DNA of 64,000 nucleotides from NCBI GenBank assembly GCA_012295275.1, contig CM022665.1, positions 18,290,001 through 18,354,000 on the forward strand, in the 5' to 3' direction. This DNA comes from Chrysomallon squamiferum (taxonomy: Eukaryota; Animalia; Mollusca). This document shows positions 3,084 to 55,354 of the stretch, piece by piece. The stretch's first letter is position 1, and every line of letters starts with the position of its first letter. Position numbers and translations under genes: made by a program. The notes beneath the pieces are model-generated. The model saw only the letters and a list, made by a program, of their open reading frames with translations. It ran no database searches and was not told where the DNA came from.

Positions 3084-3747
3084 ATGGGAAAGTTGATCGC
3101 AGCTTCGCTAACTCTAGTTCGACAGTAGGTTTTAAACATTTTGGAGTTTTATACTTGAAATAATAAGTTGAAAGTTCTTTTGTGCAGGTTTATTGACACT
3201 CCAGACGGGTTATTCTGCTTCGCAAACCTGGATTGGTCAAATATGGGTTATTACAGTGCTTACTATATTTTACGAGTGACCTCGTCGGGTTATATCATTT
3301 TAAAAATGAAATTAAAAATAATTTCTTGTCATGTTCCTTATTAATCCATCTCCAACGCCTTATTTTTAAAGAAAATATCGTTCTATGTGTTACGGTGATA
3401 TTACTATATTACATTATTAGATTATTGTTACATTAGTGTTGAGCATGTAATGTTTATTATTAACTCGGTAACTGCCTCTGGATTTGTATGTACGTGATTG
3501 ATGATAATGAAAGACTAGTCACTGTTAATACTGTCACAAAGTGTCTGAATAATAGTCCTATCCAGAATTTACTGTCTGAAACTTACTTCTATATTTCTGG
3601 TTGTTGTCTGTTTTTTTCCCATGGACCCCAGTGTCACCCGGTTAACGTTTGGCTTGGTTAAGTTGGTGTCTGCTAACTTTATTCAGTCTAGTTCAGAACT
3701 TGATACTGTTTTTTCTTAATCTGAATTTTTTAATTTTTTTATTATTA

Positions 3748-3782
<35 letters not shown>

Positions 3783-6700: not shown

Positions 6701-7429
6701 CAAGTGGATGAACAGACAGATCGTGTGAAGACAGTGTGTGCAGTAAATAACCAGCCTGCCACAAAATCTCAGAGAACCATTGACGCATGTCAAAATTCTC
6801 AGAAAGAAAGCAGTGTTCTTGCAAAAAACAATCACTTTGATTTTGAAAACGGCAGGAAGGTTATGGGGGAGGGTTTCTATAAGGAGGGGGAGTTCACTGG
6901 CTGTCCGAACATCTCTGTGTGCTGTGATAACGACACGTCGCAGATACACTTCTACACGGATAATGCCAACCCAAGAGAGATTTTTTCACAAAAACCAGGC
7001 TACAGCAAGTTCAACGACTCCGAGATCAAAACTGTTGTCAAGACAACAAAAACAGCGATGCCCAGCTGTCCCAACGTCTCACTGTCGCCATTGTTGGAAC
7101 ACAGACTACCCAGTGTGTCCAGCGTCAGCTCTGGAAGAAACAGCAGCTTTGACGACAGCGATGGTGCGCCATTGTTCATTGCTGAAGTCCTTGTGGTGAG
7201 TCACGGCGGCCTTCTCAAAGAACTCATTCGCCACATCATTGAGGACTTCAAATGCAGGTTGCCTGGCAGCAAAGGTCATGCCCTACGGGTTGGCCCCAAT
7301 GCAAGTTTGTCGAAGTTTACAATAACTGTTGATGATGTTTCTGACAAACCCATTATTACCTGTCTGAGACTTCATGATAAAGAACATTTACTCTCACTGG
7401 ATGAGGAAGATGCACCAGGAACATTATAG
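3084..7429 (+). CDS. TIGAR: TIGAR-like fructose-2,6-bisphosphatase (histidine phosphatase / phosphoglycerate mutase family), ~444 aa
   Basis: Exons 3084-3124, 4468-4505, 5128-5321, 5967-6077, 6479-7429, GT-AG, total 1335 nt. Motifs: LTLVRHGET (catalytic RHG), IIQGQIDTCLSETG, FASDLNRANQT, RLRERRYGVMEG, FTPAGAE, VLVVSHGG. The N-terminal layout matches TIGAR. Confidence 0.92.
5590..5880. repeat. Degenerate intronic tandem repeat (about 3 copies)
   Basis: Recurring unit aaaagtatttttattatttgttacaat...tttttaatcactatgagtt in TIGAR intron 3. Confidence 0.6.
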
Positions 7430-8570
7430 CAACAAAACAAAATAAAAAATTCTGTTTGTTTTATAAATATTTATTGTGAAAGGTAATGCAATCACTGATG
7501 AAAAAAAAAAATATAGATTAAATGTAAATTAGTTTTAGATGGATGCATTGGATAACAGTTTTCTTTTAGAATTATTTTAATCATGTTTCATTCTGTCAGC
7601 ATTTTGTTTGGAAATGTACTTGCATTTTATCAAAACTTTCTTTCTTTCTTTCTTTTTTTTTTATAAATGTATGAAATAAAACTGTCCATAGCCATCACAT
7701 AGTGTCTAATCATGTTTTGTCTTGTTTTGGAGGGGGGGTTGGATTTTTTTAATTTTATTTTTTAATTATTATTTTTTTAACACAGATTTCGTTGTTGAAA
7801 TGTTTTATTCCAATTCTTATCAGAAGATTGATTATTATTAAACTTAAATGAACGAAAATTAGTTCGAATGATAAAATTGGGGTCTTGAACTCAGTATGTG
7901 TGTGTATATATATATAATGCAATTCTTCATTCTTTCTTCTTTTTTTTAATTAAAAAAAACAAACAAAATGCTGTGGACTTTTTTTTAATTGTTAATGCAG
8001 CAAATAACTAATTCTGTTTAATTCATCATTGTATGCTGTCTGCCAAATAGCCTGGTGCAGTTGTTAATTAATATTTAATATTTTATTTAATTTAAAAGTT
8101 AACTTTTAGGTCAGAAACTTGGAATTAATGAATATTTTGTATCCAGCACCTTATACTGGAACCTTGTGTTCTGTTACTGTCCACGTGTCTTTGAGTAATT
8201 GTTTGACAGTCTTTAGCCAAAATTAAACAATGTATACTATTATTAGTTCTTATTATTTAATTAACAAATCAAAATTTCCACTTTAATTAAAAGAAAAGAC
8301 AGATATTTGAGCCATATTGAAAAAGTGATGAGTTTATATTAAACCCAGTAAACAATGATAAAAACTCAGTTTATTATTGTAAGAAAGGCGTCATTAAAAT
8401 AATAATTTAAAAAAAATGTTTATTTATAATTTTATTTCATACACTGGTCACCTGTCCAGTATGTGGTTTTTCATGATTTTTATTTCATAAATTGATCATC
8501 TGTCCAGTGTAATGTTTTCCATGTATCATTATTTTCATTAAATTACAGTGTTGTACTATTTTTATAAATA

Positions 8571-15489: not shown

Positions 15490-27380
<11,891 letters not shown>

Positions 27381-28226
27381 GGTCTCTTCTGTCAGACCAC
27401 CTGATGATAAACGGAAGAATTAATTAACATTTGCCTAATGATAACCCATAACTTTTTCTAAAAAGCTTTTAATATAAGGTAAAAAGAAATAGTCTTCAGC
27501 AGTACCATGATTTATTATTAATATATATAAGCAGTAAGAATACTTTTATAAAATTTCAAAAAAACAAAACAAAACAAAAACAGAAATGTATTAATAAATG
27601 CTGTTTTTACATGAAAACTATTTAAAATAACTTCAAGTTCAGCATTAAAAACAAAAGGAATAAAAAATGTTTAAAACATTTGCATTCCTAATTAAATTAA
27701 AACAAACAAACAAAAAATAATTATTTTCGAAGTACAAAATTTGTTTTAAAATATGCACTGACCTAAAACTAAAAAAACCCCAAAATTAATCAATTTATAT
27801 CATTTATAAAACAGTTTGTCTAACAAATAATCTGAACTAGATGTGCTGTCATATATATATATATAACACTATTAATACCAGTTTTAAATACTATAATTTA
27901 TTTTGTATAATTAAATTTAGATTCTTAATTGTTAAATCTTGCTGATTAAAATATTATTAATATAAAACAGTCGTAATTGAAGAAAATCGTTTCATGATAT
28001 ATATTACAAAGGAACCTCTAACTACAATCAGATTTTCACGGTAAAAAAAGGAGGTGGGTGTTGATTTATTCATTAATTTTGTTGGATTTACGACACGGAT
28101 GTTGAATCGTGTCCATTAAGATCTCCAACCTAGTACAAGTTGTTGATCGGATAACTTCATTGGAAATATTTATCATCTACAAATATTTGTCACTGATCAT
28201 AAATATCATTAAATTTGCATTTTTAC

Positions 28227-28380
28227 CTCTGGGTACTTATTTCTGAATCACAAAATATAACCAAAGTATTTTCTGGAGTAAAGCTAAGTAGTACGTTCGT
28301 TGTATTCAGCAAAAGCAACTTTATCTTGCTTCCACTTCCTAGGCCTTTCTTGCTTCCGGGTGAATCACGTGACAGAATGC
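28227..28380 (-). promoter_or_regulatory. Probable non-coding first exon and core promoter of cortactin (copy 1)
   Basis: Donor AGAG|gtaaaa at 28227/28226 pairs with the acceptor at 27401 just upstream of the ATG exon. ETS-like CTTCCGGG at 28353-28360 and E-box TCACGTGAC at 28365-28373. Transcription start is inferred. Confidence 0.55.
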
Positions 28381-28629
28381 AGGAACATTATTTGTTTGCA
28401 TTCGGGGATTGGATAGAATTTTTAAATTATTTTTTAACTTTTCATCATGGTGTATGTAATTAACGTCGTCTGACTAATGCATAAATTGGATACAAAAACA
28501 ATTAAAAACAAAACAAAAATTTAAAAGTAAAAATGTACATGCACTGATTATTTGCTTTAAAAATGTTTATACAAATGTCAGTCGTGTGTGTGCGCTCGAG
28601 ACAGCAGAAGTACTTATTTTGAACTGATA

Positions 28630-28667
28630 AAAACAACAAACAAGGCACTAAAAATTAATGATTTATT
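28630..28667 (-). terminator. Probable polyadenylation signal of the duplicated EED 3' end
   Basis: AATAAA on minus strand (tttatt 28662-28667) followed by a GU-rich element ttgtttgttgttttt. Identical in unit 2. Other AATAAA candidates exist. Confidence 0.4.
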
Positions 28668-30385
28668 TATGTACAAATGAAGAAGTGGACAGTGTTGAAA
28701 ATATTTACATTAATATGAATAAATGCTAATTTAGCATCTAATTCAATAATTCAATGAAAACTTTCTTGAAAAGCATATATGATATTTATCATATAGGTAT
28801 TATATCGATTAGAATTTATAATGGAAACGTAACTAAAAATTACCAAGTCCCTCTTAATTCATTTAAAACACAAGTGTTCAGTTCAAATGAAATGACATTA
28901 AACAAAATAATTTTATTTTCTGTTTTGTTTTTCAATAAATAAATAAGCAAAATAAGTACTTTATAAATAAAATCGGATAATTTTGGTACATTTAGTTTGA
29001 ATTTTTTTTTTTTTTTTTTCCTTCATATTTTAACGAAATCATTCAAATAAAATCATAAATATAAACTGTAATTGATGTATTGGCAAATTCCTTTTTTCAG
29101 CATAGTTATTTATTTTTTTCAGAAGTTTAATGAGTATGGGATATGTGTTTTCCAAAAAGTACTTAGTTATTGAATATTAAAGCTTACTGCCTCATTTTAA
29201 ATAAATTTTTAAAAGTTATCATTTTTTGTTGTAACACAAGGGCAGTCATTCAGTTAGCAAAAAAAAAAAAATATAAAAATAATAATAAATTTCCTTACTG
29301 AAGTAAATTAATTTTCAAAATCTAAAATGATTAAAATGCTCATCAGTGAAAATGTAACATTTAACTCGTATACTATAACAAAAATTAATGGAAATAAGAG
29401 ATGGGATTATTTCAAAATAAGAAGTAACATGATCCAGAAGAAACCATTCAAAATAAGAAATAAAGTTCAACAGATGAAATCATTCAATTTGATAAGAAAT
29501 AAAAACTTCACCAAGATAAACAATAGCAACTAAGAGATTAATAATATGAAGACAAACAAATCTTGTTTACTCCAACAACACATTCACCACATTAGAGTAC
29601 ACAACAGAAATTTAATAAATTTAATAAAGTAGCAGCATGTGAGACACATTCAAGTTTTAAGACTTTTTGTTCAAGCTCTAAATAAATATATTCAAAATAA
29701 TACTGCTGGAAATGTTAAATGCTGCTCATTTTCAACTTATGCTAAACTTAATAACTGGTCCCAGAACAAATAATGGATATTTAACCCTTCAGGTATCGGG
29801 CTGGATCTGACACACCCAAGCACATTTTTCATTAAATTTCTTTATTGAAAGAATTGTGTGATGTTTGTTTTCTGTGCATTAATAATAATGAATATTATAT
29901 CATAGCTCTTATTTTTATTTTCAAACAATAAAAATTAAAATTAAATACAAAATGGCAAGACCCAGTGTAATTATTCCTGTATGAAAAATATTGCAAGCTC
30001 TTATGGCTTAAATGCTTTTAACAATTGTTTTATAAACATATATATATATATATATATATATATACGCATACATACATACATATGTTCACTTTTAACAGCC
30101 AATTTTGTCTTTCACACATTCACTTTAAAAACTAAATTGTAATCAAAGAAGAAATATATACATTTTTAAAAAACTTCATTAACAACTCCAGTTGATCCAT
30201 ACCAGATTGTATAAAACCGAAATTTTCTTTCCTTTAATTTTCAGAATTGTGTTCTTAATAATTTTCTCTTGTCTTTGTCCATTTCATTTTGTCTTCAGAA
30301 AAAGACACTTCTTTCTGTAAGCAGCTCAACTTATTTCTTCACATATGTAAAGGAATCAAAATGGTTCCTCTGTCTGTTGATTCTT

Positions 30386-30866
30386 TCATTTGACTCTATC
30401 CCATCTCCAGATAGTTGAGTCATCACACACTGCTAACAGAATGTTCCCATCTTTAGAAAGAGCTGTCTGTCTAATTGGAGTTGTACATTTTACATGAGAC
30501 AGCTTTGTGAACCTACAAGAAGAATATTTACTGTAATAACAATCGTCACTCTAAATATTGTTTTAGTAATTATCTTATACTTTTTAATTTTGTTGTTATA
30601 TGATGCTCTTGCTGTCAAATAAAATATTTTTTAAAAAGTCCAAAATGGCACCTATCATGCTTTGCCAGTGTGTAAAACTGTCATACTTTATGATTAGCAA
30701 AGGTTGGTATCTACAAGAAATTAAAACATTCTCATTTTTTTTCTGCAACAAAAGAGATGTTTTAAATGTACAAAAATTTTTATTTTTTTATTACCAGTTT
30801 GATCCTAATAAATTTGATAAAAACCTATTTTTAAATTTTATTGTTGTATATTATTATAAGAAAGGG

Positions 30867-30897
<31 letters not shown>

Positions 30898-32668
30898 CAT
30901 GCTTTCACATGGTATTTAATTCTGTCATACCTTATAATTAGCAAACATTGGTATCATCAATTAATTAAAACATCTAATAATTATAATACAGTATTTTTTG
31001 GTACTTTTTATATAAAAATTACTAACCTGGACTGTGTAGGATCATCAACATCTAAATCCCAAACAAAAATTCTTCCAACCTGGTTTCCAAGAGCCATTAT
31101 CTATGAAAATAATAATTATAATGTGAATAAGATAATACAGTTTTTCTTTAAACCTGCATCAGTCAGTTTATGTGTTCCTCATAAATGGAAATATATTGTC
31201 ATATAAAATAAAAAATAAAAATAAAAATAAAAATAAAAATAAAAATAAAAATAAAAATAAAAATAAAAATAAAAATGAAAATAAATAAACCTGCAAGACT
31301 GTTGCAGTAGAATTTTTTTTTTTAGTAATGTGAGCAGATATTTATTTCTATAATATGAATGTGTGGTTGTGCGTGTTAATATTATATTCATGTAATCATC
31401 TCAAACCTTCCCCTTGCACATGAACTCAACACACCTTCTGAGCAAAGTCTAGACAAAACCTCATGTACCAGATCTCACACTCCCTGTAGTCAAATCTGTG
31501 TAGTATTGTAACTGTTGTGTCTGTTGGCGATTTCTCATCCTGATCCATTGTTCCTGGCTTCCAGCAAACTATACAGTTCTCACATGACTGCAACATTGAA
31601 AGTAGTCTTGTCAATACCAGAATATCAGTCTGTACATACCAGTTTTTAACAGGACTGTAAATCATTTATTTAACATTAAGGTGTAATTCAAATTAGATTA
31701 CATCATTTAAAAAACATAAAATACAGAAGAAAATATTTAATTTTTCTTTAAATAGTTTCAAATTAATTTATTTGTTTTTATTTTGTCATTAATTGTTTGT
31801 TTTGGTTTTTTTTTTTTAATTGTTATTATTATTTTTTAATAAAAAATTAAAAGTTAAAAATGGTATTATCTAACATTTCTCATGATCTGAAACAAAATAA
31901 AATATTTTCCTATTCACCTTGGACAGCACAAATTTCCCAAGCCATCGTACACAGTCTACATAATTTCTGTGTATATCTCTTGTGGAAAAATCTGGAAAGT
32001 GGTTTGATACTGTTGGAAATGGACTGAAAATAATAACAATAACAATAACAATAACAATAACAATAATAATAATAATAATAATGATAATAATAATTATTAT
32101 AATAATAGTTAAAGTAATAGTAATGATGGTTATAATGATATACACACACAGACACACACACATCTATATCTATACATGCATACATACATACATACATACT
32201 AACAGATATGGATAGACAGATAAATATAAATCTACATCTGTCTAACCACACATACACACACACACACACAGACACACCTACACACACCTATCAGTATATA
32301 TATTTGTAAATCTGTATGTATATCTGTGCACCTCTAAATAATATAAAATTAACACAACTTGCTCCTATTCAGAGGAGATGGTTTCTGGGAGCATAAAAAT
32401 AAAACAATTTAAAACAAAAATACAAGTTACTCATTATTTTTGGCTGGATTGTAGGTGTATGAATCAACAACAGCTTTCTTTAAAACATGTCTGTGTTAAT
32501 TTTCCACACTTTTAGTGAATGATCCATGCCACATGATACAATCTTGGAACCATCAATGTTAAAATCCTGGAGGCAAAATACACTTTATTATTATTAAGAA
32601 TCACTTATTCAGACAAAGTGTGAGAGAGAGTGAGAGTGAGAGTGAGAGAGAGTGAGAAAGAGAGAGAG

Positions 32669-32748
<80 letters not shown>

Positions 32749-33182
32749 ATACTATAAGGGAGAGAATGAGATACTGGTAACAAAGAGATAGAGAAAAAGT
32801 ATAAAGTAAGAGTGATAGATACATACAAATAGAAAAAGCAACAACAATTATATATAATAAAAGAAAAAGATTATTATTACAGAAGTTAATATTTAGACAT
32901 ATATATGCTAACAGTAATTAACAGAAACAAACTAAATGGATGAATGGATGAACTGAAATACACTTTTTAAAATGTAAATGAAAATGCAGTAACAAACTAA
33001 TTCACTTCTACAAAACAATATTTTAACCAATTTACATTAAAAAAATCATGAAATAAGTCAATATTAAATAGTTAATTTTCAGAGACATACAGCACTAAGA
33101 ACTTCATCTCTGTGACCATCAACCCCACCCAGAATCATAACACAAACATCCGTTTTCACATTCCAAATACGCAATGTGTGAT
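30386..33182 (-). pseudogene. EED: Duplicated 3' half of EED (exons 7-12) lacking exons 1-6; exon 8 frameshifted
   Basis: Exons 33182-33091, 32566-32431, 32023-31918, 31587-31435, 31100-31027, 30512-30386. Exon 8 is 136 nt versus 134 nt in the intact copy (cttta at 32478-82 replaces acg), giving ATG TTT TAA. Confidence 0.88.
32620..32745. repeat. (AG)n microsatellite in EED intron 7 (duplicate copy)
   Basis: Direct reading; length differs from the 42338-42479 copy. Confidence 0.9.
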
Positions 33183-33565
33183 CTGAAATCAAAAACAATG
33201 GAATAACATCTGTTTAATGACAATGAATTTTTGTATCTGTCATTTTGTGTCAAATGTATCTTTTATACTTTTTCCTTTCTGCAATTTAAAATTTATATAA
33301 CTTATGCATGTTAGAAATGATCTGTGATAAATATAAGAGAAAAGAAAAATATATTTATTGCTGAGATTCTTAAGTTTCAACTTTATGGCATAACTGAAAA
33401 GTTAGCTACAAAATGTATTTTAGGAACTTCTGAACTGTATTCATAATAACAGTGGTCATGTTGAAAATTGAAAATTAAGAAGCTAAACAATAATATTAAT
33501 AACAATAATAGTAACAGTATAATAATAATAATAATAATAATAAATCAGTAAATGAGATTACTAAC

Positions 33566-36500
33566 TTTATCTTTCCTGTCTGACTGTACTCCATATTTTC
33601 CTCCAAAACCTTTGGCAGCATCAGTCTGACTGGCATGTTTTGATAACTCCTCTTGATAGTCATGACCCACAGCAGACTACAGAATATAATTATTTTAAAT
33701 TATTCATTAAAAATCATTTAAAAAAATAATTATTAAAAATAATTTTAAAACATATTTATTATTAAAATAATTTTTAAAAATAATTGTTATTAAAAATAAT
33801 TTAAAAGTACAATTATCAGTAAAAATAATGCTAAATATAACTCATTTAAAAATAATTAGTAAATTTTAATTAATAATTAATTAATAATTAATAAATTTCA
33901 GTTAATAAACACTTTTAACACTAACAACATTTTTACTTCAAGAATCAGATAATCTTTGATAACTGTGTACACAATAAAAAATAATAATAATAAAATTAAA
34001 AAAATTAAATTTATCAAGCTGTCAATCAAACAGCAGTCATCTTAGTGCACTTACCGTATATACTTGTGTATAAGTCGAATTTTTGGGAGACTATATTAAG
34101 GTAATATTTTGGGGTTGACTTATACATAGGTAATGCTTTTGTAGCTGTTGCTGAAGTCGCCATTTTGACTATTTTTTGCTACAGGATGCATCTAAAATAA
34201 TCGCAGTCTTTCAGCTTTTCAAAAATATAATTTTATCGTATAAAAAAAAAATTTGAAAAATTAAATAACAAAACCAAATATGAATGTAAAACATGATATT
34301 CTTCCATTTAATGACATAAAAATACATTTTAAAGCGAGAAAACCGTCAGTACGGCATTATGCCTTACGGCGTCTTGCAGTGATCTAGGAATGCAGACTTC
34401 TCTGCCAAATTGCACTAAATATCGGTCCTAATTTCATAAACAAAACTCACTTGTGTAATTGTAAAGAATTTGGTGAAATAATATTGCAATCGTCATTAAT
34501 ATCCACTACCGACAAATCGAAAACAAACTAAATTTCTATAAACATTCTGCAACAAAAATCAGTTCAACTTCTCGCCATATTTGTTATTCTAGTTGGTTGC
34601 CAAGTGCGCAAAGCCTCGGCCAATTAGTGCGCTCGGAATAGGATCGGGGGCGTGTCTTGTAGCAGAGTTTCGATAGAAAAAAATATTGCTGAGGTTCCAA
34701 AATTATCTTACTTTGAATTGCACATGCAAGTTACAGCTCGTGCAAGTTATGTTACAGTAGGCGTACAATGTAGGCCTTCATGGCACTGTCACACTGGTCT
34801 AAAAATAGTGACGGTGCCTGGAATCTACAGTCGACTTATACACAAGTAATACCTAAAATGAAGCAATTATTGGTCTTAAAATACACATCGACTTATACAT
34901 AAGGTCGCCTTGTACACAAGTATATACGGTAATAAGAAAATCTGAAATTGCATGTGAATGTAACACTTTAGATAAAATAAGATGATACAATTATTAATTC
35001 TGATAATCTCTAAAATAACTATGTAATAATTTGTACAAAGATGCCTTGTAATGTTTTATGTTAATAGACAAGAAGGATCAAGCTTACAACATGTAAATAT
35101 TTTAAATAATATATGATTATAAAAATGATAATTTCTAAAAACAGAAACATAATTATTTGAAGAAAGATACCTCATAATATTTAATATTAATAGTTATGAA
35201 GGATCAAGCTTACAACATACGCAAATACAATATTTAAGATAAAATAAAATTATAAAAAGATTAAATGCGATTAGATAATTTCTAAAACAGCAACATAAAT
35301 ATTTGTAAAATTTTACATTAATCATTATACTGGATCAAGATTACCACAGACAGCAATTAAAAAAAGTAACTTCTGAGTCATCACTAATATTTCATTGAAA
35401 TGCATCACCCATATAGAACTTGTGTGTGTGTGTGTGGGGTGTGTGCAAAATTTGATTATGTGGCTACAGAGAGTTGGCTGGTATGGGAAAACAGAGCACT
35501 AACCTTATCCATTCTATCTTTTTGGACTCCATACTTGCCACCATAGCCATACGAAGCTTTTGGGCCCTCTTCAAATTCTTTTTGTTTCACTGTTTTATCG
35601 TCTTGTTCTACTTCCTTCCTCAGCGACTTCAAACTGAAGTAAGAAAGAAAATTCCATTTAAAAATAAGCCATGTGAAATCTGTGAGTAACAAATTTTTCT
35701 TTTTTCTTTTTCTGTTTAAGCCTGTCCCACAAAAGAAAGACATGGAAATCAGCAATAAATAATTTTTAATTTTGTGAATAACAGTAGATACACTATCTGT
35801 GATGATAATGGAAGAAAGCTGAATAGGTGAAATAAATATAATTATAATAAAAGATTAAATAAAATTCCCAGTATCAACTATCAGTGATATATTATTTTAT
35901 ACTTTGATATACTAAAAATATACACACATACACACACAGATAGGCAGACAGATAGATATAAGATATAGATACATACATATATACACACACACATAGGGAG
36001 ATAGAGAGTTAGTGATATTAAACAAGTTTTAATAATCAATTTAAACAAATACTTTGGTATATTTATAAAAAAATGTATTAAAAATATGGATGATCTTATA
36101 AACACTATATCTAGTTATTTACAACCATCGTGCTCTTAAAAAACAGCAAACAAAAACACACACTTAACCACAAAAAGTGTATTAACCAAAATACTAATTT
36201 TTCAGCTAGAACAACACAAAATATCTGACTACATAAAAAAGAAAAATATATATATTTTTTTTTAATCAATTCTGAAACAACAATCTTCATATATTAACTG
36301 GAAGGTATATAATGGCTGCCCAGATTTGCATCCCTCTAATTATTATTTTATTCATATTCATATTATTATTTAAAGTCTTATTATTATTTCATGAAAGAGA
36401 ATGTTGATGAAAACTCACTCTAAAGAAGCTTGATGTCCGGAACCTTCTACAGTCTTTGCACCCCATCTTTGTTCTTGTTCACTGACGTCATTCTGAAAAC

Positions 36501-37073
36501 ATTCAAATACATTTTAATATTTATTATCCATTTTATACACACACACACATGTCTGTGTATATGTGGTGTCTGCAAGTGTGTTTACTTGTGGGTGGATGCA
36601 TGCATTCATGAATGTGTTGCCCTAGCTTTAATCAGAAATGTTAGGACACCAAAGCAAGCTGGACTGCCTTTGTGGCAACTTAAATTTTGTCAAGTTTTCA
36701 CTTCACTGAGGTTTTCACAGATCATAGCTATGTTATGGTGAGCAACCAATCAAATCAACATTTTTCTGAATTACATGTATTTATAGTTTTTATTCGACAA
36801 GGTCAGTGAATCAGTGGCATTTATAGTAAATGCTTGGAGGCAAACCAGGTAGGGCAACCACAGTGTTTTAGTTTTACTGCATGATTTTTTGTAAATGAAC
36901 CATTATGTAAATACTTGTGTAAGTGAAACATTAAGTAAAATACTGGCATAAATAACAATAAATTTCAGTTTAATTAAAGTACTAACTACAAAATCAGGAT
37001 CTGTTTCCCAATCATCATCTTCAGTTGAAATTGGCTTCACGTTTATATTTGTTCCAGCTGCAGCCTTCCACAT
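33566..37073 (-). pseudogene. CTTN: Duplicated 5' part of cortactin (first four coding exons, 134 aa: NTA plus ~1.5 repeats); forms the 5' half of a CTTN-EED chimeric unit
   Basis: Exons 37073-36987, 36492-36419, 35633-35504, 33676-33566 have intact frame and splice sites and match unit 1. Downstream cortactin exons are replaced by EED intron 6/exon 7 at the 33273 junction. Confidence 0.88.
34054..34929. mobile_element. Tc2/pogo-like non-autonomous DNA transposon (876 bp), copied with the segmental duplication
   Basis: Same TIRs, TA flanks and flanking sequence as 24365-25236. Confidence 0.9.
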
Positions 37074-37933
37074 GGTCTCTTCTGTCAGACCACCTGATGA
37101 TAAACGGAAGAATTAATTAACATTTGCCTAATGATAACCCATAACTTTTTTTTCTAAAAAGCTTTTAATATAAGGTAAAAAGAAATAGTCTTCAGCAGTA
37201 CCATGATTTATTATTAATATATATAAGCAGTAAGAATACTTTTATAAAATTTCAAAAAAAAAAAAAAAAAAAAAAAAAACAGAAATGTATTAATAAATGC
37301 TGTTTTTACATGAAAACTATTTAAAATAACTTCAAGTTCAGCATTAAAAACAAAAGGAATAAAAAATGTTTAAAACATTTGCATTCCTAATTAAATTAAA
37401 ACAAACAAACAAAAAATAATTATTTTCGAAGTACAAAATTTGTTTTAAAATATGCACTGACCTAAAACTAAAAAACCCCCAAAATTAATCAATTTATATC
37501 ATTTATAAAACAGTTTGTCTAACAAATAATCTGAACTAGATGTGCTGTCATATATATATATATATATATATAACACTATTAATACCAGTTTTAAATACTA
37601 TAATTTATTTTGTATAATTAAATTTAGATTCTTAATTGTTAAATCTTGCTGATTAAAATATTATTAATATAAAACAGTCGTAATTGAAGAAAATCGTTTC
37701 ATGATATATATTACAAAGGAACCTCTAACTACAATCAGATTTTCACGGTAAAAAAAGGAGGTGGGTGTTGATTTATTCATTAATTTTGTTGGATTTACGA
37801 CACGGATGTTGAATCGTGTCCATTAAGATCTCCAACCTAGTACAAGTTGTTGATCGGATAACTTCATTGGAAATATTTATCATCTACAAATATTTGTCAC
37901 TGATCATAAATATCATTAAATTTGCATTTTTAC

Positions 37934-38090
37934 CTCTGGGTACTTATTTCTGAATCACAAAATATAACCAAAGTATTTTCTGGAGTAAAGCTAAGTAGTA
38001 CGTTCGTTGTATTCAGCAAAAGCAACTTTATCTTGCTTCCACTTCCTAGGCCTTTCTTGCTTCCGGGTGAATCACGTGACAGAATGCAGG
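37934..38090 (-). promoter_or_regulatory. Duplicated cortactin first exon and promoter (copy 2)
   Basis: Same donor (37934/37933), CTTCCGGG at 38060-38067 and TCACGTGAC at 38072-38080 as copy 1. Confidence 0.55.
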
Positions 38091-38335
38091 AACATTATTT
38101 GTTTGCATTCGGGGATTGGATAGAATTTTTAAATTATTTTTTAACTTTTCATCATGGTGTATGTAATTAACGTCGTCTGACTAATGCATAAATTGGATAC
38201 AAAAACAATTAAAAACAAAACAAAAATTTAAAAGTAAAAATGTACATGCACTGATTATTTGCTTTAAAAATGTTTATACAAATGTCAGTCGTGTGTGTGC
38301 GCTCGAGACAGCAGAAGTACTTATTTTGAACTGAT

Positions 38336-38374
38336 AAAAACAACAAACAAGGCACTAAAAATTAATGATTTATT
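38336..38374 (-). terminator. Probable polyadenylation signal of intact EED
   Basis: AATAAA on minus strand (38369-38374) plus a downstream GU-rich tract, about 1.7 kb after the stop codon. Confidence 0.4.
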
Positions 38375-39743
38375 TATGTACAAATGAAGAAGTGGACAGT
38401 GTTGAAAATATTTACATTAATATGAATAAATGCTAATTTAGCATCTAATTCAATAATTCAATGAAAACTTTCTTGAAAAGCATATATGATATTTATCATA
38501 TAGGTATTATATCGATTAGAATTTATAATGGAAACGTAACTAAAAATTACCAAGTCCCTCTTAATTCATTTAAAACACAAGTGTTCAGTTCAAATGAAAT
38601 GACATTAAACAAAATAATTTTATTTTCTGTTTTGTTTTTCAATAAATAAATAAGCAAAATAAGTACTTTATAAATAAAATCGGATAATTTTGGTACATTT
38701 AGTTTGAATTTTTTTTTTTTTTTTTCCTTCATATTTTAACGAAATCATTCAAATAAAATCATAAATATAAACTGTAATTGATGTATTGGCAAATTCCTTT
38801 TTCAGCATAGTTATTTATTTTTTTTTCAGAAGTTTAATGAGTATGGGATATGTGTTTTCCAAAAAAGTACTTAGTTATTGAATATTAAAGCTTACTGCCT
38901 CATTTTAAATAAATTTTTAAAAGTTTTCATTTTTGTTGTAACACAAGGGCAGTCATTCAGTTAGCAAAAAATAAAAAAAATATAAAAATAATAATAAATT
39001 TCCTTACTGAAGTAAATTAATTTTCAAAATCTAAAATGATTAAAATGCTCATCAGTGAAAATGTAACATTTAACTCGTATACTATAACAAAAATTAATGG
39101 AAATAAGAGATGGGATTATTTCAAAATAAGAAGTAACATGATCCAGAAGAAACCATTCAAAATAAGAAATAAAGTTCAACAGATGAAATCATTCAATTTG
39201 ATAAGAAATAAAAACTTCACCAAGATAAACAATAGCAACTAAGAGATTAATAATATGAAGACAAACAAATCTTGTTTACTCCAACAACACATTCACCACA
39301 TTAGAGTACACAACAGAAATTTAATAAATTTAATAAAGTAGCAGCATGTGAGACACATTCAAGTTTTAAGACTTTTTGTTCAAGCTCTAAATAAATATAT
39401 TCAAAATAATACTGCTGGAAATGTTAAATGCTGCTCATTTTCAACTTATGCTAAACTTAATAACTGGTCCCAGAACAAATAATGGATATTTAACCCTTCA
39501 GGTATCGGGCTGGATCTGACACACCCAAGCACATTTTTCATTAAATTTCTTTATTGAAAGAATTGTGTGATGTTTGTTTTCTGTGCATTAATAATAATGA
39601 ATATTATATCATAGCTCTTATTTTTATTTTCAAACAATAAAAATTAAAATTAAATACAAAATGGCAAGACCCAGTGTAATTATTCCTGTATGAAAAATAT
39701 TGCAAGCTCTTATGGCTTAAATGCTTTTAACAATTGTTTTATA

Positions 39744-39775
<32 letters not shown>

Positions 39776-40095
39776 CGCATACATACATACATATGTTCAC
39801 TTTTAACAGCCAATTTTGTCTTTCACACATTCACTTTAAAAACTAAATTGTAATCAAAGAAGAAATATATACATTTTTAAAAAATTCATTAACAACTCCA
39901 GTTGATCCATACCAGATTGTATAAAACCGAAATTTTCTTTCCTTTAATTTTCAGAATTGTGTTCTTAATAATTTTCTCTTGTCTTTGTCCATTTCATTTT
40001 GTCTTCAGAAAAAGACACTTCTTTCTGTAAGCAGCTCAACTTATTTCTTCACATATGTAAAGGAATCAAAATGGTTCCTCTGTCTGTTGATTCTT

Positions 40096-47607
<7,512 letters not shown>

Positions 47608-48225
47608 TTTGGATACGTAACCACGTGTATACCACATGGGTTATAAAAATAAGATTAGTTGGCGGCACATAGGCTGAAATTTGAATACCTATGTGTGTGT
47701 GTCAGCGGCGCAGCATTTTGGAGGATGTAGTGACAGTCATGTTTGTTTGTTCGTTGTCGTTTTTAATAACAGATGCTGTTACCTAGATGTTGCGATGTTC
47801 AATAATTACCTTTGGCTGAGCAAGTGATTGAGAAATACGCACGATGTTAAAAAAAGGTTCAAATGAAATCGATTCTGGTTTGCGCACTTCGCAAACCTGT
47901 ATTTTTGGTTTTATTTATTTATTTATTTTGAAAAATTAGTTTATATTAAATATTCTTCCTCTTGTTTTCTCAGATTATCAAACAAGGTTGCGAAATTCTT
48001 CTTATAGTGTGACTGCCGATGTACCCCATAGAGCGGCACAAATCCAAGCTACTCCACTGGATAAAAATATATATATATATATATATAATAATAATAAATA
48101 ATAAAACAAAATGTGATTTTTAAAGCTAAGAATGTGAACATTTTACTGTATCTTTAAAACTATTTTCTTATTTTCTTATTTTATATTCCCCCTCGAACCT
48201 ATTTCTTGCAAATAAATTAAAGGTT

Positions 48226-48262
<37 letters not shown>

Positions 48263-48744
48263 GTGTGACTGAATGAAAGACCGCTTTTAAAATGACAATA
48301 GGAGAAAGAAAAGTCAAATACATATAATTTTCTAATTTCTAAAAATATTTATTATTTATTATTTTATATTTAATTTATTTTAATTATTTTTTGTTTGTTT
48401 TTCGATTCTAAAGTAAATGGGCGGGGTTTTCCAAATATGTGTCAACCAATCAATGGTCTACATCTGGTGGTAGTTCGCAGACGGTTTTTCTTGGTGATGT
48501 AAGATTATTATTATCAGAAAGATAAAATGTCTGACATATTTACTTAAAAACTGTACCGAGAAACTGTGTCAGTCAATTAACGTAATGATTTATTGTTTTC
48601 TTTTTATCATTCAGTTAAGGATAATTTTAATATGTACCGGACTGATATCCGGCGGATCTTGATGACAACTGTCACGCAGTAAGAACTTTCTCAAGCCGGG
48701 AAATGAACTATGTGCTCGTCGGTGTTTCATGAGTGTATTTTAAT
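47608..48744. promoter_or_regulatory. Divergent promoter region between EED and NUS1
   Basis: Head-to-head ATGs ~1.1 kb apart, CpG-enriched patches, GC box GGGCGGGG at 48419-48426, CCAAT at 48446-48450. Confidence 0.6.
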
Positions 48745-51700
48745 ATGTTGAAGGAAATACTTTTGAGACTTATACATTATGTATTAAGTTTAGGATTATT
48801 TCTTAATCAGACTATTGTCAATTTTCCTAATAAACTGGGTAGTTTCTTTAAGAAACAGCCCCTTGGACGAATTCGTTCTGATGCAAGACGGCTGAAAAAA
48901 TTGCCTTTACACGTGGGACTTGTTATTGTAGAAAGTGAATATTCTTATCGTGATATAGCTAATATTATTGTGTGGTCTGTTGCCTTGGGAATATCATATA
49001 TAAGTGTGTATGATTTTAATGGTATGTTTTTTCTATTTAAATACCACTCTTCTTGCTTCTCTATTACGCATTAATAAAATTTAAGGAAAATTAAAGTTTA
49101 AACTTATAAATGTAATACTTTTATTAATTTTAAACTGATTAAGATTTATTTCGGTTCATACGGTTTATTTTACAAATAATAAGTGTATAAACCAGAATCA
49201 ACTTTCTAATTAACTTTATATAAATGAATAAACGCAGCTGACCAAAACTCATTTTGAAATCAAATAATAAAAATTACCATTGTGAAATCATATTGATGGT
49301 ATTTATCCTCACTATGAATTATATCATAAAACTAGTTGATGTATAAATCTCCAAACACATTAAATGAACTTGTTAAAGACTGGAATGACTTGTATACATA
49401 ATGGCCATGGAGAAAATATGTTAGCATAAAATAGCATCAGAAGTGTATATAAGAAACTTTAAAAACAAATCCAGCAAGTCATTAAAACTAAAAATTAGCA
49501 TGATGTTCAACAGACACACCTTTAATAACATTATTCTAATGTTTTGCATGTGTTTGGTATATCATTGTTATAAATATTAATTTCAGGTGAAATAAAGAGA
49601 AATGCTGTTTTATTGCAAAAAGAAATACAGAAAAGTAAAGAAGAAATACTGGCTTCTGAGAAGTTGAAATATGATATAGAAATTTATTCAACAGACAGAA
49701 GAGAAAAAACTAGGGAAGGTGGTAGGTGTTTTTTATTCATTAATACCACTGATAGACAACATTCATTGTTATTTTTTTCTTTTTTTTGCAATGTTTTCCT
49801 GGCTTCTGAATTTACAAAAAGTAATACATTTCAACTGATGCACATAATTTGTTCATTAGTTTTTCATAAACATACATTTAAGTGATATTATTACTATTAG
49901 GTAAACTAGTGTGAAAAATAAATACAGTATTTATAATTGTAATAGTTGGATAAATCTGCTTTCTGCAGTTAACAGTAATAAAATATTTAGTGATTATATC
50001 CACTTAGTGCAAAGATTTAATCTTATTTACGGGATAATTTTCTGTATTTTGTGGACGTTAAGTTAAGCTTTTAATGCAGAGTACAATACAGACAGTGAAA
50101 CAGAAATTTGTGACACTTGTAAAATAAATCACATTGGCATCCATTCGAATTAATATTAATGTATCCACGAAACTACCATTGTTTTTATATTTAATCTTTG
50201 TATTTTATTGCTAACCAGAAATAATTTAGTGACAGCTGAAAATGTTATGTATTTGTTTTTTTATTTATGGGGTCATTCCGTGTCAAATCACCCAAAAAAA
50301 AAAGAAATTTAAACCCGACCGTCTCAGATTTTTATAAAACTTGGTATACTTGTTGACTGGGATCCCACAGCACCAAATCTGAAATGTTAGCCCAATCAGA
50401 CCAGTGGTGTGGGAGATACGGCCCTACGAAATTTGAGATTTTTGCCAAAAATGGGTGTGACCACCAACCTTACAACCCTCATATCTCAGGAACTACTGGG
50501 CCAATCTTCATAAAATTGGTATTGTTAGAAAGGCAAAATGACAAGGATACCAAATCTGCCATTTTTGTTTAGTTTGGAAAATATTGGAGTACCTTGACCT
50601 TTTGACCTTTGCTATGACCTTGAAATTGACCGTGTGGATCACGTGATCTTGAGATGACCTTTATTGAAATTTAATCTCCCACATGTTAACTAAAACATAT
50701 AAAAGTTTCCTGGGTGTAATATTTTTTGTTTAGCCACAATATAGATTTAAAAAATGCACATACATGAAAATAACACCTTTTCAGCCATTAACATCTGATT
50801 AACTAAAACCTGAATGATCAATTCTGGATGCTAGGGATCACCATCTTTCTTGATCATCGAGTAAGACATTGTAGGCCTACATGTATGCATAAAGTTCACA
50901 TAAATCTGAGAGAACTAGGTGTTTCTGATGCTTAACCGTCTCACTATGTTTGTTTCAAATGCTCACTGTATCCTTCATTCCCAGACACATTCTACTGTTC
51001 TCATCACTTTCATAAAATTGGATTATTTCCTCCTTCAATTCATTGTCCTTTCAATGGTAAAGGGTGACAAAATCAAGATTTGCACATGCTCTGGGTAGGA
51101 TTCAGACATTATGATGTCATTTTAATGTTACTGTAGCTGATGCTAGTTTTTTTTTCCTTTTTCATTCATTTACTGGAATGTGCTAGAGAATGGAGTTTGA
51201 CAGGAGTTTAAGCCCTAAACTTCGACAGAATAGAATTCAAATCAAAGTCCTTTTCTGGGGAAACAACAACCAGCGGTTTGTCTGGCAAGTTATCACCAAA
51301 TTCTCCTATTGTAATACCACCCATACTAAAGCCATCTTCTGCAGGACCTTTGATTTCTGAAGGGTAATCAGACAGTCACAGCACAACTTGTCTCCTGGCA
51401 CTAGTGTCTTTGGAGGATTTACTAAGCATTTGTAAGTGCCCATGCTAACAATTCTTAAAGATCTAGTGCGTGCTTGCTCAGGGTGGCAATTAAGGGGATC
51501 ACAACAGTTTTTCTGCAATGTTGAAAATTTGATGAAAAGTTCTTGTTCATGATACTCTTGATGTCCCGTGTTTCGATCCCACTTCAAAGAGTGAGGAGTT
51601 CGACTTCCTCAGTTTTCCATACACTTCGCAAAAACTCCTTTTTGATATGATGGTGCTGATAACACACATTTTCAGGAGAGTTAAAGCTGCAGTTAGCCTT

Positions 51701-53946
51701 GGAAGAAATAAGGATTTTCATTATTGGCCTGCACCTTCAATTCAATAGAACAAAGTCAGTGCTGAAACCGTTTCAGTAAAGTTAAGCAGGTCATAAAATG
51801 GCAGCAGAGTACATGTGTTATTGCCAAAGGCCCACAAGTCTTGGGCATTTATGTCAATCTTCTCAAGTATAAATCACAGTTTATTAAGGTGAAGTAGACC
51901 TTGTTCATACTCTGTGTACAGACTGGGTGTACAAATACATTATGCAGTACATCACTTGATGACGTCTGATTTCAGACTGGGTTGTACTGTTGTTGACTGA
52001 AACCTTGTTCAAAACCAATGGCAAGGCCCACATGACATGATAAAATTACTTAATAGGTTTTATGAAATAAAAATATTATTTATATATCAACATCTGACAT
52101 TGTGTCCAAGTTAAAAAGCTTCAAATTGTCAAAGAAATGCAGATGAAGAAACTTCTTTTTCTTAAACTTCTAATTGCCATGTGCTCAATGGGGATTGCAC
52201 CAGGGGATCTAAAGGAATTCCTGACCTGCCTGAAGCATCACTTCCTGTTAACCCTTTGAGCCTGATTGTGTAGAACATGTCATGCCATTTGGCATCTTTT
52301 CATATCCTTCAGGCATTCCTTCAGACATGTCAGGTGGGTTTTAACTCCAAAGATGAGTTTTTAGTCTCAGAGAAAACTGTAATGCATTGTATCAATCATC
52401 CATGCAGGTATGCATTTTTTTAAATCTCTATTATGGCTAAACAAAAAATATTATACCCAGGAATCTTTTATATGTGAACTTTATGCATACAGGTAGGCCT
52501 ACAATGTCTTACTCGATGATCAAAAGAGATGGTGATTCCTAGCATCCAGAATTGATCATTCAGGTTTTAGTTAATCAGATGTTAATGGCTGAAAAGGTGT
52601 TATTTTCATGTATGTGCATTTTTTAAATCTATATTGTGGCTAAACAAAAAATATTACACCCAGGAAACTTTTATATGTTTTAGTTAACATGTGGGAGATT
52701 AAATTTCAATAAAGGTCATCTCAAGATCACGTGATCCACACGGTCAATTTCAAGGTCATAGCAAAGGTCAAAAGGTCAAGGTACTCCAATATTTTCCAAA
52801 CTAAACAAAAATGGCAGATTTGGTATCCTTGTCATTTTGCCTTTCTAACAATACCAATTTTATGAAGATTGGCCCAGTAGTTCCTGAGATATGAGGGTTC
52901 TAAGGTTGGTGGTCACACCCATTTTTGGCAAAAATCTCAAAATTCGGTGGGCCGTATCTCCCACACCACTGGTCTGATTGAGCTAAAATTTCAGATTTGG
53001 TGCTGTGGGATCCCAGTCAACAAGTATACCAAGTTTTATAAAAATCTGAGACGGTCGGGTTTAAACCATTGGGTGATTTGACACGGAATGACCCTATGAG
53101 ATAAATATTGAATTTTTTTTAAAGTTATTTGCTAATTATGGAACCATTTAGGGCATGTAGGGATAAACAAATTTTGGGGGGTGAACAAGCTGGTGGGTAA
53201 CATCAATAGTTAATTGTCTGTTTGAATATTTTTTATTTTAAAAAACATTTTTAATGATACTGTACTTATTTAAAATAACCACACACAAAAAAAGATGAAG
53301 AAGAGAGAAAAACGCCTACGTAGTAAATAAAAGATTCAAATGATGATAGCTTTTAAAAAATTGGTCATCTTCATGAATATTTCACAGACTTGAAATATTG
53401 ATCTTTTGAATGATATTATTTTATGAGTAGCTTTAAAAAAATTTAATGAAAGAAAAAAATAACCAAAATGGTCAATTTTAATTTAACAACCAATTTTTAT
53501 TTCATTTGTGTTGTAATGTATACTAAATAAACATAAATATAATTTATCATGTTTTATCCTTTCACTATTTTATACATGTTTAAGCATAATTTAAAAACAA
53601 ATTCTAACAAAACTGTTTTTATCCTTCCACTAGTTTAAATATATATATATATTGCTGTAAAAAAGTATGTTACAATAATTTTTATTTCCTAACATAATGT
53701 ATATACTATTATATTCTACATAAACATAAGTAGAATTTATCTTGTTTAAAAAAAAAATTAATAATAATAATATAACATAATTATTTTTATCCTTTCACTC
53801 TTTTCAGTGTAGATACATATATATTATATATGAGGGGGAGAGAAACATATATACACAAATGTACATATATTATTATAAAAAAAAAAGATTTGATACAGTA
53901 ATTGAATTTTATAACAGATATATGTATGTTTATATTTATAAATTTA

Positions 53947-53980
<34 letters not shown>

Positions 53981-55354
53981 TTCTTCTCAGCATGTACAAA
54001 CATAAAACGAGTCAGAGTTAATTTATTGTGTGAGGAGGATGGACGGTGTAGTATTGTCAAAGTGACAAAACATTTGTGTCAGCTTGTACAAAACAAAGAG
54101 CACAGAGTGGAAGATATCATACCAAACAATGTTGATACATTTTTTCAAGGTAACCATAGCACCTGCATTTCATGTTTTTTCTTTCTTTTCTGTTTTATAT
54201 ATATACACACACATACAAACACATACAGGGGTACAAAAAAAAAAAAAAAAATATTTTTTTAAATTATTTTTTTATTTAATTGTTTTTATTTATATAAATT
54301 GAATACCAGTTTATGAAGACTGTTCATCAGAAAGAAATTTATTTTATTTTTTGTTGTTGTTTTTAAATTTTTATATGATAACCACATAAACTGAATTCCA
54401 GTTAATATTTATCACAAAAGAAACAAAAAATAATTTATATTTTTATTCTAAATGTATTTGGACTACATTTTACTCTTATTTATGGAGATAATAACAAATA
54501 ATCACCACATAATAATCCATTGTCAGAAGGAGATTTCCTCTCATAACATAATTTAAAAAAAGAGAGAGACATATATTTAAGCATATAATAATCATTTTAT
54601 AAACAAACACACACATTAATATAGTGAGAGAAAAAACAAGCAAAAAACCTGTTTTATAATTATCTCAGATACATAGATTCTGCAATATTCTAATTCTTTT
54701 CACCAATTTTTTTTCTTTTTCCTTTTTCTTTTTACAGATTTTACAAAATTTCCCGATCCAGACATTGTTATAAAATTTGGGCCCATAGATTCATTGTTAG
54801 GTTTTCTTCCTTGGCAAATACGCTTAACTAGCATTTTGTGAGTATCCTGTGATTTTCAGTAATAATTCTGTTTTGTTTTTGTGTAGGTGTTTTTCATTCT
54901 TTTTTTTATTCTTTTATTTTTTTATTTAATTTAAAATACAAAAAAAAATATTTATGGAACTAAAATTAAATTTTGAAAATGATTTTATTGCCTAACATCT
55001 TGAAAACAAAATACATGAGTAGTTAAATTGTAACTGATAATTTTTATTTTTAAACTGTTATTTAATTTTTAATGATAAACCAAACCATTAAATTAAATTA
55101 AAAGGTTTGTTGAATCTATATATATATATTTTTTAATGTTTTATCTGTAATTACTAATAAACTTATAATTATTATTTAAACTATCTTTTTCTAACATTAA
55201 GGGGAAAAAAAATAGTCATAGTTAAATGTAAAAAATTTAATTTTTATAACTTTGTATTTTCAGATCATTTCCCTCTCATAGACAGATAACCTATAAGACA
55301 TTTTTATCAACACTGGTTTCATACGCACACACAGAGCAGCGACATGGCAAATAA
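48745..55354 (+). CDS. NUS1: Dehydrodolichyl diphosphate synthase complex subunit NUS1 (Nogo-B receptor), ~253 aa
   Basis: Exons 48745-49021, 49587-49721, 53991-54149, 54738-54837, 55264-55354; total 762 nt (alternative in-phase donor at 49718). Motifs [52 protein letters not shown]...[11 protein letters not shown] and the C-terminal RxG motif EQRHGK. Confidence 0.95.
50270..53094. mobile_element. Non-autonomous long-TIR DNA transposon, Sola2-like (2825 bp), in NUS1 intron 2
   Basis: 4-bp TSD TATG at 50266-69 and 53095-98. Termini GGGTCATTCCGTGTCAAATCACCCA. TIRs ~630 bp (50270-~50903 and ~52471-53094) with only scattered mismatches. GRG...CYC ends, a 4-bp TSD and long TIRs match the Sola2 group. 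Confidence 0.85.
51306..51672 (-). pseudogene. Decayed N-terminal transposase fragment (Cys/His-rich)
   Basis: [11 protein letters not shown]...SLRIVS...[11 protein letters not shown] motif, preceded in another frame by VCYQHH...EEVELLTL with a stop. It lies inside the long-TIR element and no DDD catalytic core is visible. Family assignment is from memory. Confidence 0.55.

What the first reader, a model, noticed from the sequence alone, without database searches (positions are those of the whole stretch)
28630..38090. Duplication assembles a complete chimeric CTTN-EED transcription unit between two intact parent genes
Seen: read on the minus strand, the order is intact EED, a copied cortactin promoter and UTR exon (~38090-37934), four intact cortactin coding exons (37073-33566), a hybrid 383-bp intron with a cortactin donor and an EED acceptor (33565-33183), EED exons 7-12, the EED 3' UTR and polyA signal, then intact cortactin. 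The cortactin exon ends in phase 0 and EED exon 7 starts in phase 1, so default splicing reads ...[17 protein letters not shown] (TGA at 33158-33156), a 142-aa product. Known: that product keeps the DDW Arp2/3-binding NTA but lacks most actin-binding repeats and the SH3. Inference: it is a likely NMD target, but if expressed it could act as an Arp2/3-binding decoy or as an RNA carrying the EED 3' UTR. This looks like a very young chimeric gene.
Basis: partly seen in the sequence, partly recalled or inferred. Interest (0 to 1): 0.85.

Follow-up and report, generated by a model that had tools for sequence, protein, structure and literature searches.

The report
Unfixed cortactin-EED fusion allele in snail
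A 9.7-kb tandem duplication in a snail puts the front of the cortactin gene in front of the back half of the EED gene, out of frame, but it appears to be carried by only some animals and its RNA is predicted to be destroyed, so it is likely an ordinary copy-number variant rather than a new gene.

Summary
The anatomy is as described. A 9.7-kb head-to-tail duplication (23587-33278 / 33273-43013, 99.0%) joins cortactin exons 1-5 to EED exons 7-12 between two intact parents. Default splicing gives 142 aa, with a stop 65 nt before the next of five downstream junctions. It is probably real DNA but not a fixed gene. In 1 of 3 DNA runs laid (X1, possibly the source animal), both flanking contigs end exactly at the predicted branch base 33273, and depth is about 1.5 times a rough off-target control, which suggests a heterozygote. 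In the other 2 runs, contigs run through into parental sequence. The one RNA run laid shows only normal cortactin and EED splicing, but it comes from the study whose laid DNA run lacks the junction, so expression is untested. Copy differences are mostly simple-repeat or CpG noise, so the event is very recent. Published truncations of this type bind Arp2/3 but not F-actin and left endogenous cortactin in place. Verdict: a segregating tandem-duplication chimera, a well-known and common class (Drosophila Qtzl even has an out-of-frame EED-family 3' parent), likely NMD-degraded and short-lived.

The parts
23587..33278 (.). Duplication unit, copy A (cortactin 5' half of the intact gene + copied EED 3' half)
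   Evidence: self-BLAST and global alignment
33273..43013 (.). Duplication unit, copy B (cortactin 5' half of the chimera + EED 3' half of the intact gene)
33269..33278 (.). Novel junction; a 6-base word is shared by both parental breakpoints, with one T fewer in the adjoining T run; both de Bruijn branch points fall on 33273
   Evidence: X1 contigs 7 and 8 both end at 33273
37934..38090 (-). Cortactin promoter-proximal non-coding exon, chimera copy (5' end inferred)
   Evidence: GT donor after 37934; 38200-37900 identical to the parent copy; start site not measured
36987..37093 (-). Cortactin exon 2 (ATG at 37073; NTA with DDW, W22)
36419..36492 (-). Cortactin exon 3
35504..35633 (-). Cortactin exon 4 (start of HS1 repeat 1)
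   Evidence: PF02218, E 7e-7
33566..33676 (-). Cortactin exon 5, ends phase 0
   Evidence: PF02218, E 2e-14; covered by RNA contig 29 of X9, which continues into parental exon 6
33183..33565 (-). Hybrid intron, 383 nt, cortactin donor + EED acceptor
33091..33182 (-). EED exon 7 copy, entered out of frame
33156..33158 (-). Premature TGA of the default chimeric frame, 65 nt before the next exon junction
32431..32566 (-). EED exon 8 copy; +2 discrepancy at 32474-32483 in the assembly, not read in any of 4 runs
31918..32023 (-). EED exon 9 copy
31435..31587 (-). EED exon 10 copy
31027..31100 (-). EED exon 11 copy
29841..30512 (-). EED exon 12 copy with 3' UTR; candidate AATAAA signals at 29919-29914 and 29846-29841
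   Evidence: RNA contigs cover 29976-30290; cleavage site not measured
40096..47607 (-). Intact parental EED, 12 coding exons, 427 aa
15490..27380 (-). Intact parental cortactin, 14 coding exons, 559 aa (NTA, 6.5 HS1 repeats, SH3)

Best explanation
A 9.7-kb tandem duplication with breakpoints in an EED intron and a cortactin intron places cortactin exons 1-5 before EED exons 7-12 out of frame; it is likely a very recent, unfixed allele, probably heterozygous in the animal behind run X1, whose transcript is predicted to be removed by nonsense-mediated decay. Shown: the sequence anatomy, the frame clash and the intact parents. Inferred: (1) origin by microhomology-mediated repair or template switching at a shared 6-base word; (2) the copied cortactin promoter fires like the original, since both copies have the same upstream context; (3) the hybrid intron is spliced, giving a stop 65 nt before the next of five downstream junctions; (4) NMD keeps RNA and the 142-aa peptide low, so the allele is near-neutral or mildly harmful and will probably be lost.
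For: The two copies are almost identical. Of 51 difference events, 36 lie in simple repeats (background 16.9% of positions) and 9 beside a CpG (background 4.1%); of the other 6, three are microsatellite edges and one belongs to the exon-8 discrepancy. The predicted branch base on both sides is 33273, and X1 contigs 7 and 8 both terminate exactly there with no letters left over. X2 contig 16 carries 1252 further letters past 33273, and X3 contigs 23 and 24 carry 567 and 301 letters that do not lie on the junction path. Two of these three lengths land in parental microsatellites (44259; 23286). Median depth of 8 locus contigs over off-target contigs is 1.50 in X1 (n=12) and 1.00 in X2 (n=13) (rough). 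A shared word of 6 or more bases arises in 0.4% of random breakpoint pairs, 1.3% allowing a 1-base slip. No AG between 33240 and 33091 restores the frame (0 of 7). The class is common and often rare in populations (PMC4069613, PMC5460883, passages). NMD may be active in a gastropod (PMC12277549, passages).
Against: The short junction-spanning contig itself was not among the 32 of 6957 pieces shown, so presence in X1 is inferred from the double break. X1 may be the source sample, so it is not an independent animal. The depth control uses truncated tables of off-target contigs, the tool warns that depth is no copy number, and X3 had only 1 control value (ratio 0.85). Only 3 of the 5 strong holders were laid (X4 and X5 were not), and contigs drop rare variants. 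X2's cortactin-side contig was not listed. No RNA from a carrier was examined, so transcription, splicing and decay are all untested. In D. yakuba, 24 of 76 such chimeras showed raised expression, so decay is not guaranteed.
Confidence: 0.7

Rival explanations
1. Assembly artefact: two haplotypes of one locus were written in tandem, and no chimera exists.
For: Differences are dominated by homopolymer, microsatellite and CpG noise. At 29218 copy A has the X1/X2 letter and copy B the X3 letter, and at 30774 copy B has the X3 allele, as two haplotypes would. X2 and X3 contigs show no junction.
Against: There is no N gap in the window. In X1 both contigs stop on the exact base predicted only if junction words are in the reads, and X1 locus depth is 1.5 times its off-target control versus 1.0 in X2. 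The allele pattern also fits a heterozygote whose single-copy homologue leaked into copy B's consensus.
Confidence: 0.08
2. The productive isoform skips EED exon 7 (or 7-9, or 7-10), giving an in-frame cortactin-NTA/EED half-propeller fusion that escapes NMD.
For: Cortactin exon 5 is in frame with EED exons 8, 10 and 11: 331 aa (if exon 8 reads as in all 4 runs), 251 aa or 200 aa, with a normal stop in the last exon.
Against: It needs skipping of a constitutive exon whose acceptor, polypyrimidine tract and last about 90 intron bases are intact. The EED part would begin at about human residue 243 (alignment), an incomplete WD40 propeller lacking cage residues F97 and Y148 (recalled), likely unstable. 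In the assembly, exon 8 is frameshifted (162 aa).
Confidence: 0.08
3. The 142-aa peptide accumulates and acts as an Arp2/3-binding decoy (or the RNA titrates EED 3' UTR regulators), and the allele is a selected young gene like Qtzl.
For: The DDW motif and whole NTA are kept, and NTA alone binds Arp2/3 (PMC2189811). The promoter copy is identical. Qtzl is a swept chimera with an out-of-frame escl 3' part (PMC3449122, passage).
Against: The junction signature is missing from 2 of 3 DNA runs. The PTC position is classic for NMD. NTA and short-repeat truncations failed to localise and did not displace endogenous cortactin. No RNA or peptide evidence.
Confidence: 0.06
4. The duplication is real but the chimeric unit is silent, or terminates or splices aberrantly, so it has no product at all.
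For: No chimeric joint in the one RNA run; enhancers in the 3' part of cortactin are displaced by 9.7 kb (inference).
Against: The upstream context of both promoters is the same EED 3' end and intergenic DNA. The RNA run is probably from a non-carrier.
Confidence: 0.08

Closest known systems
Qtzl (Quetzalcoatl; CG12264 + escl) in Drosophila melanogaster
   Same: Chimera from an incomplete duplication across two adjacent genes; the 3' parent is an EED-family gene (escl; family link seen in hit names) inherited out of frame (review PMC3449122, passage; the primary paper was not held).
   Different: Qtzl is reported fixed in 35 isolates with a sweep signal and is expressed. This allele shows its signature in 1 of 3 DNA runs, has no expression evidence, and has cortactin as its 5' parent. 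The events are independent.
Segregating tandem-duplication chimeras in D. yakuba / D. simulans (Rogers et al. 2014, 2017)
   Same: Both breakpoints lie in different, parallel genes; 78 and 38 such chimeras in 20 lines each, about 10% of gene-capturing duplications, many singletons, at lower frequency than whole-gene duplicates (PMC4069613, PMC5460883; passages).
   Different: Here the host is a gastropod close to Gigantopelta aegis, and the parent pair is cortactin and EED. A search for cortactin + EED + fusion + duplication gave 4 papers, 3 listed, none on such a fusion by title or abstract.
Sdic (AnnX + Cdic) in D. melanogaster
   Same: Incomplete tandem duplication spanning the 3' half of the upstream gene and the 5' part of the downstream neighbour.
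   Different: Sdic was refashioned by deletions into an ORF, amplified about 10 times and became testis-specific; nothing of this kind is seen here.
Engineered cortactin NTA / N-repeat 1-2 truncations (Weed et al. 2000)
   Same: NTA with DDW plus fewer than four repeats, no SH3 (PMC2189811, passages).
   Different: Those were overexpressed cDNAs; this would be an NMD-sensitive natural transcript with 8 foreign residues.

Membership tests
Tandem-duplication chimeric gene (Rogers class) | Both breakpoints inside different genes | tested here: met
   Left end in a cortactin intron (23879-23419), right end in EED intron 6 (43334-42917)
Tandem-duplication chimeric gene (Rogers class) | Parents in parallel orientation, with 5' promoter and 3' end captured | tested here: met
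   Both on the minus strand; promoter region identical; AATAAA candidates present. The start site was not measured.
Tandem-duplication chimeric gene (Rogers class) | Junction exists in genomic DNA | tested here: met
   Indirect: double contig break at 33273 and about 1.5x depth in X1; the spanning contig was not displayed
Tandem-duplication chimeric gene (Rogers class) | Chimeric transcript is made | tested here: inconclusive
   0 chimeric joints in 1 of 2 documented RNA runs laid; contigs only, probably a non-carrier
Established young gene (Qtzl/Sdic type) | Fixed or at high frequency | tested here: not met
   Contigs run through the breakpoint into non-junction sequence in 2 of 3 DNA runs; a small sample
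Established young gene (Qtzl/Sdic type) | Sweep signal or phenotype | not testable with these tools
   Needs population resequencing or experiments
Cortactin (product) | NTA with DDW motif | tested here: met
   DDDW at residues 19-22
Cortactin (product) | Fourth HS1 repeat for F-actin binding | tested here: not met
   2 of the parent's 7 repeat-start motifs kept, about 1.5 of 6.5 repeats
Cortactin (product) | C-terminal SH3 | tested here: not met
   SH3 only in the parent's last exons (PF14604 at 15493-15570)
EED/esc (product) | Complete WD40 propeller in frame | tested here: not met
   EED part out of frame by default; in-frame skip forms carry only exons 8-12 or fewer
EJC-dependent NMD substrate | Stop more than 50-55 nt upstream of an exon junction | tested here: met
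   65, 201, 307, 460 and 534 nt to five downstream junctions; rule as quoted in PMC12277549
EJC-dependent NMD substrate | RNA rises when NMD is blocked | not testable with these tools
   Bench test

The most novel reading that the evidence does not exclude
A cortactin-EED chimera caught while still segregating is expressed in carriers, escapes full NMD, and yields an Arp2/3-binding NTA decoy or an in-frame actin-regulator/Polycomb fusion; together with Drosophila Qtzl it would be a second, independent case of the EED/esc 3' half being recruited into a new gene.
Probability: 0.07. Interest if true: 0.65.

Novelty: new member of a known kind. Interest (0 to 1): 0.27.

Why it matters
As it stands it is a clean, base-resolved example of the raw material for chimeric genes in a mollusc, plus a practical warning: the reference sequence here appears to carry a non-fixed allele with unpolished errors inside the duplicated unit, which would produce false extra cortactin and EED models and a false frameshift. 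If carriers do make a stable product, one could compare carriers and non-carriers of the same species and watch the first step of new-gene birth acting on actin nucleation or PRC2.

Tried and rejected
No whole genome is held for this window, so flanking copy number and paralogues could not be searched. The first read-laying attempt over the whole chimeric unit returned nothing; the second covered only 28700-33700, wholly inside the duplicated unit, so no single-copy flank depth was obtained and cortactin exons 2-4 and the promoter were not checked against runs. DNA contigs gave little or no cover in 33543-33700 and none in 32040-32206; this was not used as evidence. Contig depths of cortactin versus EED in X9 were not used to rank expression. 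The 15 short 'joints' shown in table 5 (sides 20-35 letters) were rejected as AT-rich chance matches and used only as a rough depth control. Frame rescue by a nearby cryptic acceptor was rejected (0 of 7 AGs). The +2 lesion in exon 8 as proof of pseudogenisation was rejected: 4 of 4 runs read the parental form, though a one-in-three allele could be dropped. The primary Qtzl and Rogers 2009 papers were not held, so Qtzl rests on a review passage. Literature searches gave nothing on this fusion (listings and abstract starts only). Look-ups of earlier scan findings returned nothing. No structure or complex prediction was run: NTA-Arp2/3 binding is textbook, and the open question is expression. 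No supplements were read.

Full report
Observation. Self-comparison of the window shows one large direct repeat, 23587-33278 against 33273-43013, 99.0% over 9751 columns, with no N in the window. Exon models built on GT-AG boundaries give an open 427-aa EED (47607-40096, 12 exons) and an open 559-aa cortactin (27380-15490, 14 coding exons), both on the minus strand. EED is 94.6% identical over 409 aa to the EED of Gigantopelta aegis, the best of 63 hits, so the host is a gastropod close to that species. Pfam finds HS1/cortactin repeats in 3 and SH3 in 1 of 8 exon translations; the other 4 were too short or gave no hit. Between the parents lie a second cortactin promoter region (38200-37900, identical), four identical coding exons, a 383-nt hybrid intron and EED exons 7-12. 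The cortactin donor is phase 0 and EED exon 7 is phase 1, so the frame ends at TGA 33158-33156 after 8 foreign residues, giving 142 aa. One detail was missed: copied EED exon 8 is 2 nt longer than its parent in this assembly.

Is the duplication real? No genome was held, so I laid public contigs on 28700-33700: 3 of the 5 runs holding at least half the words, and 1 of 2 documented RNA runs. If junction words are in a read set, the assembly graph must branch on both sides, and both branch points compute to base 33273. In X1, contig 7 (32755-33273) and contig 8 (33273-33483) both end on that base with no letters left over. In X2, contig 16 continues 1252 letters past it. In X3, contig 23 continues 567 letters past it and contig 24 has 301 letters before it, none lying on the junction path. 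Following the parental sequence, two of these three lengths end in microsatellites, where contigs usually break (44259 and 23286); the third (43574) is uninformative. As a rough control, the median depth of the 8 listed locus contigs over chance-matching off-target contigs is 112/75 = 1.50 in X1 (n=12) and 80/80 = 1.00 in X2 (n=13); X3 had one control value (0.85). This fits three copies versus two. Limits: the junction contig itself was not among the 32 of 6957 pieces shown, X2's cortactin-side contig was not listed, the control tables are truncated, the tool warns that contig depth is no copy number, and X1 may be the source sample. The reading is: real in at least one animal, probably heterozygous, and not seen in two others, one of them from the same study.

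Age and origin. Of 51 differences between the copies (19 substitutions, 32 indel events), 36 sit in simple repeats and 9 beside a CpG, against backgrounds of 16.9% and 4.1%; only 26402 and 29218 are plain substitutions elsewhere. At 11 difference sites covered by listed contigs in all three DNA runs, 9 were read the same way by all three (7 as copy B, including exon 8; 2 as copy A), and 2 varied between runs (29218, 30774), with copy B matching X3. So most of the 1% is probably unpolished consensus error, and the rest is ordinary allelic variation. Copy B may have taken letters from the single-copy homologue, or the duplication may have joined two haplotypes. True divergence is near zero, so the event is very recent (inference). 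The parental breakpoints share a 6-base word, with one T lost in the adjoining run; 6 or more shared bases occur in 0.4% of random intron-position pairs, 1.3% with a one-base slip. This suggests microhomology-mediated repair or template switching (established mechanism, inferred here).

Expression. RNA run X9 shows cortactin exon 5 continuing into parental exon 6 (loose end at 33566) and one 975-nt EED contig running through exons 12, 10, 9 and 8 and beyond; no chimeric joint was listed. X9 belongs to the same study as X3, which lacks the junction, and contigs drop rare forms, so this neither supports nor refutes expression in carriers. The stop lies 65, 201, 307, 460 and 534 nt before five junctions, meeting the 50-55-nt rule; NMD has been suggested but not proven in a snail (PMC12277549, passages). 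None of 7 AGs in 33240-33091 restores the frame. Skipping exon 7 would be in frame (331 aa if exon 8 is parental; 251 or 200 aa via exons 10 or 11), but the EED part would start near human residue 243 and be a partial propeller.

What the peptide could do. It keeps the NTA with DDW and about 1.5 of 6.5 repeats. In Weed et al. 2000 (PMC2189811, passages) NTA bound Arp2/3, but constructs with one to three repeats did not bind F-actin, reached the cortex poorly and left endogenous cortactin translocating normally. A decoy effect would need high levels, which NMD makes unlikely (inference).

Comparison. Tandem duplications with breakpoints in two parallel genes are a described, frequent class: 78 in D. 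yakuba and 38 in D. simulans among 20 lines each, about 10% of gene-capturing duplications, many singletons (PMC4069613, passages). They are found at lower frequency than whole-gene duplicates, and 24 of 76 showed raised expression (PMC5460883, passages). The nearest named case is Qtzl, formed across CG12264 and escl with the escl part out of frame and reported as rapidly fixed (review PMC3449122, passage; primary paper not held). The shared EED-family 3' parent is a curious parallel but most likely coincidence. A cortactin-EED fusion was not found in the searches (listings and abstract starts only). It works like a newborn Rogers-type chimera; it fails the test for an established young gene on frequency, on a sample of three.

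Verdict. Observation confirmed; interpretation partly supported. Most likely a recent, unfixed duplication allele with an NMD-sensitive out-of-frame transcript (0.70). Rivals are assembly artefact (0.08), in-frame skip fusion (0.08), silent unit (0.08) and functional decoy or selected gene (0.06). New member of a known kind; interest 0.27.

Noticed in passing
window 44082-44951 (-): EED intron 4 has a U12-type (minor spliceosome) 5' site GTATCCTT and a TCCTTAAC branch box ending about 11 nt before the AG (consensus recalled). It lies outside the duplicated unit.
   Followed up: partly
window 34052-34931, 24363-25238, 18033-18631: A MITE-like element with TA-flanked terminal inverted repeats starting CCGTATATACTTGTG sits in a cortactin intron of both copies, so it predates the duplication; a shorter relative (96%) sits in a later cortactin intron. 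The ends resemble Tc2/pogo-type elements (recalled).
   Followed up: partly
window 24917-24954: Seven differences between the copies within 40 bases, all at CpG sites and four of them a missing G in copy A; looks like methylation-linked long-read consensus error in an unpolished duplicated region.
   Followed up: partly
window 29379-29876: One RNA contig of X9 (depth 3) matches downstream of the EED polyA candidates with 35 other letters, those shown clustered in 29416-29602, while three DNA runs show none of them there: a divergent haplotype, another locus or a chimeric contig. Unexplained.
   Followed up: no
window 50260-50902 and 52471-53105: A 640-bp inverted repeat pair (96%) encloses 1.6 kb of higher-GC, ORF-broken sequence with no Pfam hit in the 2 pieces tested, probably a decayed mobile element within an intron.
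   Followed up: partly
window about 47980-54830 (+): A gene head-to-head with EED (under 1.3 kb from EED's ATG to its first recognisable coding exon); the exon translations look like NUS1/NgBR (recalled; no Pfam hit in the 2 exons tested).
   Followed up: partly
window 130-2700 (-) and about 3000-7430 (+): A head-to-head pair: an amidase (PF01425, likely GatA/QRSL1, name recalled) and a histidine phosphatase (PF00300, likely TIGAR-like, name recalled).
   Followed up: partly
window 30660-30710 and 30900-30955: A short degenerate direct repeat within EED intron 11; X1 and X2 each have a contig that goes back from 30708 to 30677 with the same 34 extra letters, perhaps a related repeat elsewhere or a length allele.
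   Followed up: no
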